Positions 16,701-18,225 of a DNA stretch of 64,000 nucleotides are shown here, piece after piece. The translations under genes and the position numbers were made by a program. The stretch covers positions 11,235,656 through 11,299,655 of the forward strand of contig CM082583.2 in assembly GCA_040954595.2 (NCBI GenBank), written 5' to 3'. The stretch's first letter is position 1. Each line of letters opens with the position of its first letter. The DNA comes from Balanoglossus misakiensis (lineage: Eukaryota; Animalia; Hemichordata). Under the pieces are notes generated by a model. The model was given only the letters and a program-made list of their open reading frames with translations. It did no database searches and was not told where the DNA came from.

Positions 16701-18225
16701 CTGCAAACGAATAAAATGTGTGCAAAAATACCACTAAAATGGCCGCTGTTTTAAAGTAGTGGTTTTTATGCTACCCAGAGGTTTTCTTTGGTTTCAAAAA
16801 GACTCCTCCTGATAACCTGTTTCCCAATGCGCATATCAACATGTGATAGACTTCAAAACTTACGTAACTAAGCATTCAACTTACCTTTGCCAACAATAAC
16901 AGCCTTCGCTTCACTCACTGTTATCACGGTTACTAGAAGAAGACGGTTAGGAAACTCTATTGTTCGGAAGGTGTGAACGAGGTGTTAGCTAGGAGAGTAC
17001 ATGTCCGAACCGCTATGTGGGGTTGTATTGGGGAACGTGTTAATTTTTGAACCCCTTCATCTGCCCTTTTTCGTCAGAGTACAGCGCCACTTTTTTTTTG
17101 TACGAGTTCCATATAGGCTTATGGAGTGCACGGTCATAGTCTGTTGGGCTTGCGACACTCTACCATTGTTTCTTGGGTGGTTAACTAAAAGTCCGGACTC
17201 AAATAGCGTCGAATTTTGAACCCTCAGAATTCAACCCTGATGGTCGCATTTCTGTTTTTTTTAATATATTTAGATATTTTACACCTTTTTGTATTGCATG
17301 GGCTATTTCGTTTATTCCAATTGGAATATTTCGTTGAGATTGCATACCCATTTCGATACAGTCGTTAACATTATCGATATAGCCTTTGGCGGCCATCTTG
17401 TTTGTTTTGGTTCGCATCGAATCTCTAGGGCACAGTCAAGACAAAGAATGTATGGCTTCATCATGTCCTTGAAAGTTCAAAATTGTCATAAATGTGCTGT
17501 GACTTTATAAATTATCCACTCTCTGTTCTGTTTTCCTCAAATCTGGTGGTATACATACTGTGCGTGCAAGCAATTCCGTAAACATGAGTATGGTTTGCTT
17601 TGGATTGTAGGGGTAATGACGTCATTTTGACCGAGCGGTCAGTTATTCTGTCTGTTTATTCGTATGGCCAGGCTCGTTAGCACCTGATATCTTTCGTTTA
17701 CACTAAGTGTTTACCGAGGCGAGCATCTAACAATGGAGAAAAAATAGTTTCCTAACCGTCTTCTTCTAGTAACCGTGCTGTTATGCAATGAAGAAGGGAC
17801 TTCGACCGCAAGTGGTAGTTCAAGAAAGCGCATTTTATCCCAAGCTTGGCAAATCCAAGCCACGTCCAAATGAAAGCGGGCTCATTTTGCATGAACATTG
17901 CTATCGTGTCGCCACATTTCAGACCACTTGTCTCGCAGATGAAACGAGCAAACTTGTTCGACAGGTGGTCGACGTCTGCGAATGTTAGCGTCTCGTCTCG
18001 GAACAGCAGAAACGGTTTGTTTGTAAACTTCGGGTTATTCCGAATCGATAAGAATACATCCACGATGGTGTGCTCTCTGCGAACTCGGCCTCGGATCCCC
18101 CTGAGAGCTCGAACGCCGAGCGCAATTTCTGGGATGTCTCGGTGGAAGTAGGGATAGCTATATATTGCATAGCATAGCGCGGCCAAAAGCCCGGCTAATA
18201 CAGCGACCACGATCTCTAGTATCAT
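13800..18225 (-). CDS. SLC27A2: Very-long-chain acyl-CoA synthetase / fatty acid transport protein (SLC27 family, SLC27A2/6-like); exon 1 is interrupted by a MITE
   Basis: N-terminal TM segment, AMP-binding motif [12 protein letters not shown] split across an intron, EFYGATEG, and FATP signature YFNSGD...[23 protein letters not shown]-terminus KVKL. Exon 1 reads [17 protein letters not shown] once the 16925-17777 insertion and one TSD copy are removed. Paralogue assignment is approximate. Confidence 0.93.
16925..17777. mobile_element. Non-autonomous DNA transposon (MITE), 853 bp, with perfect 32-bp TIRs and a 7-bp TSD (CTGTTAT)
   Basis: CACGGTTACTAGAAGAAGACGGTTAGGAAACT at 16925-16956 and its exact reverse complement at 17746-17777. 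CTGTTAT is duplicated at 16918-16924 and 17778-17784. No transposase ORF inside. Confidence 0.95.

What the first reader, a model, noticed from the sequence alone, without database searches (positions are those of the whole stretch)
16918..17784. MITE inside a coding exon whose TIR carries its own splice sites: candidate intron-generating (introner-like) transposon
Seen: the element splits FATP exon 1 between HCIT and VSEAK, and unspliced it gives a stop (ARLLEEDG*). On the transcribed strand the first TIR offers a donor GACG|GTTAGG (intron start 17756). The second TIR, being the reverse complement, offers CCTAAC (branch-point-like) plus CGTCTTCTTCTAG| (intron end 16933). Removing this 824-nt GT-AG intron leaves 21 + 8 nt of TIR plus the 7-nt TSD, which is 36 nt. 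The frame is restored as ...[21 protein letters not shown]..., 12 extra residues and no stop. Because the signals are in the TIR, this would work in either orientation, and the retained TIR sequence is stop-free in two of three frames. The rest of the gene looks intact. Established: introner DNA transposons create introns in algae, fungi and some aquatic animals. Inference: this family may mask its exonic insertions by splicing and be a source of new introns.
Basis: partly seen in the sequence, partly recalled or inferred. Interest (0 to 1): 0.85.

Follow-up and report, generated by a model that had tools for sequence, protein, structure and literature searches.

The report
Young transposon interrupting acorn-worm FATP exon
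A small jumping-DNA element sits inside the coding part of a fatty-acid transport gene of a likely acorn worm, with the uninterrupted version also present in a sequenced sample; its ends carry intron-like signals that would allow in-frame removal, but no RNA shows this and the interrupted copy is more likely damaged than rescued.

Summary
In detail: an 853-nt element with perfect 32-nt terminal inverted repeats (TIRs) and a 7-nt target duplication splits exon 1 of an otherwise intact FATP2-like gene, and the proposed 824-nt GT-AG intron would restore the frame with 12 extra residues. New here: the closest protein is from an acorn worm; DNA contigs show a young family of roughly tens of copies and an empty allele, so the insertion is not fixed. 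Splicing is not shown; no RNA run was listed. The donor is plausible, the acceptor doubtful, both are predicted to be locked in a 32-bp TIR hairpin, the resulting 48-nt exon is shorter than all 40 modelled internal exons, and 136 of 145 homologues keep this segment's length. Shuffled TIRs match the whole geometry in 1% of cases at observed strength, 23% with any GT/AG. Best reading: a recent, probably damaging insertion; precise splicing and a true introner family stay open. The idea of splice sites inside TIRs is in print, and this scan noted like cases in other genomes.

The parts
16925..17777 (.). Non-autonomous TIR DNA transposon, 853 nt, no recognisable coding capacity
   Evidence: three internal ORFs of 76-78 aa have no Pfam match; high depth in DNA contigs
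17746..17777 (-). TIR met first by the FATP transcript (32 nt)
16925..16956 (+). Second TIR (32 nt, exact reverse complement)
17778..17784 (-). Target-site duplication, upstream copy (7 nt)
   Evidence: empty allele joins with 7 shared letters
16918..16924 (-). Target-site duplication, downstream copy; ends in an AG that is an alternative in-frame acceptor (+21 nt), 30 nt from the branch-like A
17751..17759 (-). Candidate 5' splice site in the TIR (GT at 17756-17755), 5.7 bits; use not shown
17752..17754 (-). In-frame stop met if the element is not removed (codon 158)
16946..16950 (-). Branch-point-like CTAAC, A at -15 from the TIR AG
16933..16952 (-). Candidate pyrimidine tract and 3' splice site in the TIR (AG at 16934-16933), 2.4 bits; use not shown
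17778..18225 (-). FATP2-like (SLC27A2-like) exon 1, coding part before the insertion (residues 1-149)
   Evidence: 77% identical to P. flava protein P0001; Pfam AMP-binding
16885..16917 (-). Remainder of exon 1 after the insertion, followed by the native strong donor at 16884 (12.5 bits)
13800..16528 (-). FATP2-like exons 2-9 (modelled), open to the stop at 13800
   Evidence: compared with P0001

Best explanation
This is a young, multi-copy, non-coding DNA transposon inserted in coding exon 1 of a FATP2-like gene at a site that is also found empty, and the interrupted allele likely yields little working protein because the two TIRs are predicted to pair into a hairpin that hides the splice-like sites they carry. 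Shown: element, TSD, intact surrounding frame, empty allele, many near-identical ends. Inferred: cut-and-paste insertion by a transposase encoded elsewhere; most transcripts would either keep the element (native donor 16884 used, stop at codon 158, nonsense-mediated decay) or splice from the TIR donor, which is free before the second TIR is transcribed, to the next exposed acceptor at exon 2, an in-frame product that lacks a core beta-strand. The allele would persist because an empty allele covers for it. The precise +12-residue mRNA may exist as a minor product.
For: Empty allele: a 747-nt contig in run X2 joins 17778 to 16917, skipping 860 nt with 7 shared letters. Contigs of X1 end exactly at both TSD edges and the X2 empty contig ends 30 nt past the junction, as expected where filled and empty paths fork (inference). 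Young family: 22 of 27 (X1) and 26 of 37 (X2) contigs laid on one end are 99% or more alike; element-end contigs have depth 5,620-16,750 (X1) and about 2,400 (X2) against 94-138 and 52-68 for the listed flank contigs that carry other letters. TIR duplex -56.9 kcal/mol; unpaired probability at most 0.001 over donor and acceptor; whole region z = -4.3 against 20 shuffles. Acceptor above only 2 of 50 real sites; 176 of 1,349 decoy AGs score as well. 48-nt exon against a minimum of 84 nt in 40 modelled internal exons; 824-nt intron against a median of 194, maximum 888 in 48. Donor-to-exon-2 product is in frame, 623 aa, and drops residues predicted as strand 153-158 in the orthologue. 136 of 145 homologues have identical length over residues 136-157. 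A related TIR seen in one contig each of X1 and X2 is one base shorter in the retained part, which would break the frame (table 7; only 30 letters seen).
Against: The donor is respectable: above 11 of 48 real donors and in the top 3% (46 of 1,475) of decoy GTs. The acceptor has 14 pyrimidines in 17 positions, exceeded by only 2 of 50 real sites, so its low score depends on a small, T-rich model. Only 1.0% of 20,000 shuffled TIRs give both sites at this strength, in frame and stop-free. A very strong native donor 48 nt downstream would help define the small exon. Equilibrium folding ignores co-transcriptional protein binding. The site is a helix end before a strand in the orthologue model, and 2 of 145 homologues carry clean insertions of 4 and 9 residues there, so +7 or +12 residues might fold. 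Survival in a coding exon slightly favours a rescued allele.
Confidence: 0.45

Rival explanations
1. The spliceosome removes the element efficiently at this locus, from the TIR donor to the TIR AG (+12 residues) or to the TSD AG (+7 residues), giving one transposon-made intron, without the family doing so generally.
For: Both products are in frame and stop-free; the branch-like A is at a typical -30 from the TSD AG; donor in the top 3% of decoys; it is among the best three donors in exon 1 plus element and the most cap-proximal of them. Known introners carry or co-opt sites from TSDs (PMC9860276 section 7).
Against: Sites predicted buried in a 32-bp duplex; very short exon; a second donor of equal score at 17714 would keep the stop; segment length conserved in 136 of 145 homologues.
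Confidence: 0.22
2. The TIR hairpin triggers spliceosome-independent SOS splicing (AKAP17A, CAAP1, RTCB), which would excise the element at many positions in or near the TIRs; only some products would be in frame and the GT/AG would be incidental.
For: In C. elegans and human cells paired ITRs in exons are necessary for excision, scrambled ITRs still work, Tc1 was removed from 90-100% of worm mRNAs, and sites rarely follow GU-AG (PMC12779559). A system shared by nematodes and humans would be expected in a hemichordate (inference). The TIRs here pair perfectly.
Against: Not shown outside those two systems in what I read; the TIR (32 nt) is shorter than that of Tc1 (54 nt); presence of the three genes in this animal was not tested.
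Confidence: 0.22
3. The family is a true introner: selection shaped the TIR to hold donor, branch point and acceptor at once, so exonic copies in either orientation become introns that add 12 codons.
For: 21 nt and 8+7 nt retained are each multiples of three; +36 is stop-free at all 5,262 of 7,893 simulated coding positions that fall in two of the three phases; 1.0% null; the exact TIR is the dominant type; aquatic hosts are enriched for introners (PMC9860276).
Against: One exonic copy known, unfixed. One phase in three always gives a stop (0 of 2,631). A 36-nt scar is three times the 12-nt case shown for Aureococcus, and most families leave none. Stronger out-of-frame donor in the other orientation. 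A frame-breaking TIR relative exists. The null thresholds were set after the fact, and the scan has picked this pattern in at least four other findings without RNA proof.
Confidence: 0.08
4. The insertion is an assembly artefact: a repeat wrongly joined into the exon.
For: No listed contig bridges an element-exon junction by 31 letters on both sides (most pieces are not shown).
Against: Exact 7-nt duplication and complete TIRs at both ends; contigs fork exactly at both TSD edges.
Confidence: 0.02

Closest known systems
Introners that carry both splice sites and add codons (Aureococcus sp.; Gozashti et al. 2022, PMC9860276, section 7 read whole, other passages seen)
   Same: Non-autonomous DNA transposon with TSD in a coding exon; both splice sites inside the element; element ends plus TSD would stay in the mRNA as whole codons.
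   Different: There splicing and many intron copies are established and the scar is 12 nt; here splicing is untested, one exonic copy is known, the scar would be 36 nt and both sites lie inside one perfectly paired TIR.
Removal of Tc1/Tc3/HSMAR2 from mRNA: SOS splicing and its spliceosomal back-up (Zhao et al. 2025, PMC12779559, parts 1-3 of 13 and passages read)
   Same: Exonic DNA transposon with pairing ITRs and a premature stop; the paper itself speculates that transposons have evolved spliceosomal sites in their ITRs.
   Different: Other host phylum and probably another superfamily; shorter TIR; no RNA data here.
Maize Ds spliced from RNA (Wessler et al. 1987, PMID 3039661; seen only as a reference title) and dSpm (recalled, no call)
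   Same: Non-autonomous TIR elements in exons removed through splice sites near their ends, leaving some element sequence.
   Different: Shown by RNA in plants; details here are recalled, not read.
Galileo, P superfamily (PMC4168063, passages read)
   Same: 7-bp TSD; this TSD matches the reported consensus at 4 of 7 positions on one strand.
   Different: No transposase or THAP remnant found, so the superfamily is unassigned; that some hAT groups also make 7-bp TSDs is recalled and was not confirmed.

Membership tests
Non-autonomous TIR DNA transposon (MITE-like) | Terminal inverted repeats and target-site duplication | tested here: met
   32-nt perfect TIRs, 7-nt TSD; empty site with one copy of the 7-mer
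Non-autonomous TIR DNA transposon (MITE-like) | No transposase encoded | tested here: met
   Longest internal stop-to-stop ORF 78 aa; the three longest have no Pfam match
Non-autonomous TIR DNA transposon (MITE-like) | Many similar dispersed copies | tested here: met
   End contigs about 40-70 times flank depth, several different flanks seen; depth is only a rough guide to copy number
Introner (Gozashti et al. 2022, 2025) | Recent transposon insertion into an exon at a site that is otherwise uninterrupted | tested here: met
   Empty allele contig; continuous 627-aa frame without the element
Introner (Gozashti et al. 2022, 2025) | Carries or co-opts recognisable splice signals that restore the frame | tested here: inconclusive
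   Geometry works; donor plausible, acceptor model-dependent, both predicted paired
Introner (Gozashti et al. 2022, 2025) | Actually spliced out of the mRNA | not testable with these tools
   No RNA holder listed
Introner (Gozashti et al. 2022, 2025) | At least four similar introns in unrelated genes | not testable with these tools
   Criterion from PMC9860276; no genome held; flanks from contigs are 30 letters at most
P superfamily (Galileo-like) | 7- or 8-bp TSD | tested here: met
   PMC4168063 passages
P superfamily (Galileo-like) | THAP-DDE transposase in an autonomous partner | not testable with these tools
   No autonomous copy accessible
SOS-splicing substrate | Base-pairing inverted repeats within an exon | tested here: met
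   Predicted 32-bp duplex
SOS-splicing substrate | Heterogeneous non-GU-AG junctions that depend on AKAP17A, CAAP1 and RTCB | not testable with these tools
   Needs RNA and genetics

The most novel reading that the evidence does not exclude
An active hemichordate introner caught as a polymorphism, whose single 32-nt TIR encodes a donor on one strand and branch point, pyrimidine tract and acceptor on the other, so that it makes introns in either orientation and leaves a fixed 12-codon scar in host proteins.
Probability: 0.08. Interest if true: 0.68.

Novelty: new member of a known kind. Interest (0 to 1): 0.3.

Why it matters
If it is only a recent damaging insertion it is ordinary population variation. 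It is still a clean natural test case: filled and empty alleles appear to sit side by side, and three published routes (retention with decay, hairpin-triggered SOS excision, spliceosomal removal at TIR sites) predict different junctions at known coordinates. If the family proved to be an introner it would extend intron-making transposons to hemichordates: Saccoglossus kowalevskii has 0 families in the 2025 survey table, Ptychodera does not occur in the 12 of 14 supplementary files searched, and no held paper contains both 'hemichordate' and 'introner'. It would also support the printed speculation that transposons evolve splice sites inside their inverted repeats.

Tried and rejected
No whole genome is held, so copies could not be mapped. 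No RNA holder listed; this says nothing about expression or splicing. Run X3 laid nothing on the gene's exons or the element; its nature is unknown and it is not used as evidence. No similar DNA in phage records, none for the full TIR pattern in metagenome contigs, one 20-nt hit for a shorter pattern (L001) with no further likeness and no partner repeat, taken as chance. No Rfam match at E 0.5 over 16800-17900. The Atlas did not hold the 78-aa internal ORF, so a transposase remnant rests on Pfam alone. The protein search with residues 1-149 found 14 proteins, the best 77% identical, so none close enough to be this animal's own annotation. Literature searches for 7-bp-TSD superfamilies gave two Galileo papers, nothing, and one paper without the needed detail; a search for dSpm splicing listed three papers that I did not open. 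Flanks of other copies were too few and too short to test for coding status or a target motif. No earlier notes for this genome or this sequence. The 'two of three frames' argument was rejected as chance. The first translation used a start one base off and was redone; two acceptors and one NCKX exon were wrong and were corrected.

Full report
1. Observation. The element spans 16925-17777 (853 nt) with exact 32-nt TIRs and a 7-nt TSD, the only matching length from 2 to 11. It lies after codon 149 of a minus-strand gene starting at 18225. Unspliced, the frame ends at codon 158. Cutting from GT 17756 to AG 16933 removes 824 nt, leaves 36 nt and keeps the frame.

2. Host gene. Residues 1-149 are 77% identical to a Ptychodera flava 'long-chain fatty acid transport protein 2-like', then 60% to Glandiceps and 54% to Saccoglossus, so the host is likely an acorn worm. 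Without the element, nine modelled exons give an open 627-aa frame, the length of the P. flava protein. I see no other lesion, which fits a recent hit on a working gene.

3. The family and the allele. Three coded runs were listed, all one sample and one study, none on record as RNA; the sample may be the source of the window. In X2 a 747-nt contig, differing from the window at 16 letters and 16 gap positions, joins 17778 to 16917 with 7 shared letters: the empty site. X1 contigs stop exactly at 16924 and 17778, and the X2 empty contig stops 30 nt past the junction, the pattern expected if both alleles are present (inferred, no listed contig bridges a filled junction). Element-end contigs have depth 5,620, 7,308 and 16,750 (the bare TIR, two per copy) in X1 and about 2,400 in X2, against about 94-138 and 52-68 for most listed flank contigs: roughly 40-70 copies, with the tool's warning that depth is no copy number. 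22 of 27 and 26 of 37 contigs laid on one end are at least 99% alike. Internal length variants exist (251 letters in place of 39 at 17161-17201; 10 in place of 42 at 17613-17656), and one contig per run shows a TIR relative one base shorter in the part that would be retained. Whether the empty haplotype is intact throughout was not fully checked, since most difference rows are hidden. P. flava is reported at 1.3% heterozygosity with frequent indels (PMC4729200, passages), so such polymorphism would be unremarkable in a relative.

4. Splice signals. I built position matrices from hand-made models of eight genes in the window (48 donors, 50 acceptors, open frames, not RNA-verified, tubulin pairs near-duplicates; the Pfam scan took 145 of 329 ORFs). 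The TIR donor scores 5.7 bits: above 11 of 48 real donors, matched by 46 of 1,475 decoy GTs. The TIR acceptor scores 2.4 bits: above 2 of 50, matched by 176 of 1,349 decoy AGs, though its 14 of 17 pyrimidines are exceeded by only 2 of 50 real sites. The branch-like A is at -15; 26 of 50 real acceptors have such a motif at -18 to -60, 4 only nearer and 20 none. For the AG at the end of the TSD it is at -30. In 20,000 shuffles of TIR positions 4-32, a donor this strong arose in 19%, an acceptor in 27%, both in 4.7%, with frame and no stop in 1.0%; any GT/AG pair in frame and stop-free in 23%. The thresholds were set from the observed scores, and the case was picked from a large scan, so 1% is suggestive only.

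5. Competing outcomes. From the TIR donor, the TIR AG (639 aa), the TSD AG (634 aa) and exon 2 (623 aa) are all in frame; the donors at 17773 and 17714 give early stops. The TIRs form a predicted -56.9 kcal/mol duplex in which donor, branch motif and acceptor are unpaired with probability at most 0.001. The proposed exon of 48 nt is shorter than all 40 modelled internal exons (minimum 84). In the other orientation a 7.2-bit donor at 16971 competes and would break the frame.

6. Protein tolerance. An AlphaFold model of the P. flava orthologue (mean pLDDT 58, 70-79 locally) puts the site at the end of helix 141-150, before strand 153-158. Of 150 diverse homologues, 145 could be scored; 136 have identical length over residues 136-157, nine differ, of which two look like clean insertions (4 and 9 residues) at this turn and the rest look misaligned or differ by 1-3 residues. 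Extra residues are disfavoured but not excluded; skipping to exon 2 would delete the strand.

7. Mechanism. Shown: transposon, TSD, polymorphism, family. Inferred: the hairpin masks the TIR acceptor, so most transcripts would keep the element and decay or skip to exon 2 (0.45). Rivals: efficient spliceosomal removal at this locus alone (0.22), SOS-type imprecise excision (0.22), a true introner family (0.08), artefact (0.02).

8. Comparison. It would work like the Aureococcus introner that carries both sites and adds 12 nt (PMC9860276 section 7), but the two defining tests, observed splicing and four or more introns, could not be run, so it is not filed as an introner. Introners arise from most transposon orders and include a sea-urchin family (PMC12130899, parts 1-2 of 7; supplements); a review notes MITE-derived introns in a tunicate (PMC11282704, passages). 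Zhao et al. show ITR-pairing-triggered excision in worms and human cells and already speculate about GU/AG sites evolved in ITRs (PMC12779559). The 7-bp TSD recalls Galileo, but the superfamily is unassigned. Earlier AI notes of this scan describe the same pattern in other genomes, none with RNA proof in the lines shown; they are not evidence for this case.

9. Verdict. Real feature, new member of a known kind, interest 0.30. The most novel reading, an orientation-independent hemichordate introner, has probability about 0.08 and would deserve about 0.68.

Noticed in passing
window 56003-62365 (+): One uninterrupted 2,120-aa ORF with seven Galactosyl_T (PF01762) stretches in tandem: an intronless multi-domain galactosyltransferase, unusual in an intron-rich neighbourhood.
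   Followed up: no
window 17727 (-), inside the element: A strong acceptor-like site (9.1 bits) 29 nt after the TIR donor, too near to pair with it; it could cause exonisation when copies land in introns.
   Followed up: no
window 14652 (-) and 50952 (-): Two of 48 modelled introns start with GC (FATP intron 7; second alkaline phosphatase gene).
   Followed up: partly
window 28921-30970 and 32194-34225 (-): Two tandem alpha-tubulin genes with nearly identical proteins and partly conserved non-coding flanks.
   Followed up: partly
window 41560-44521 and 49000-51562 (-): Two tandem alkaline phosphatase genes with shared intron positions; a 51-copy trinucleotide repeat at 43190-43342 lies in an intron of the first.
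   Followed up: partly
window 20540-25774 (-) and 26469-28244 (+): A CLPX-like gene and an RNA polymerase III RPC31-like gene head to head within about 700 nt (names from Pfam hits and recalled likeness).
   Followed up: partly
window 17778-18097: X1 contig depth 320 over the first part of exon 1, two to three times neighbouring contigs; may be both haplotypes merged or a paralogue; unexplained.
   Followed up: no
window 16208-16245: A short four-base repeat in FATP intron 2 draws very high depth from elsewhere in the genome.
   Followed up: no
window 9113-9148, 36942-36985, 45646-45681, 63269-63300: Four short near-perfect palindromes of 32-44 nt; possible remnants of small elements.
   Followed up: no
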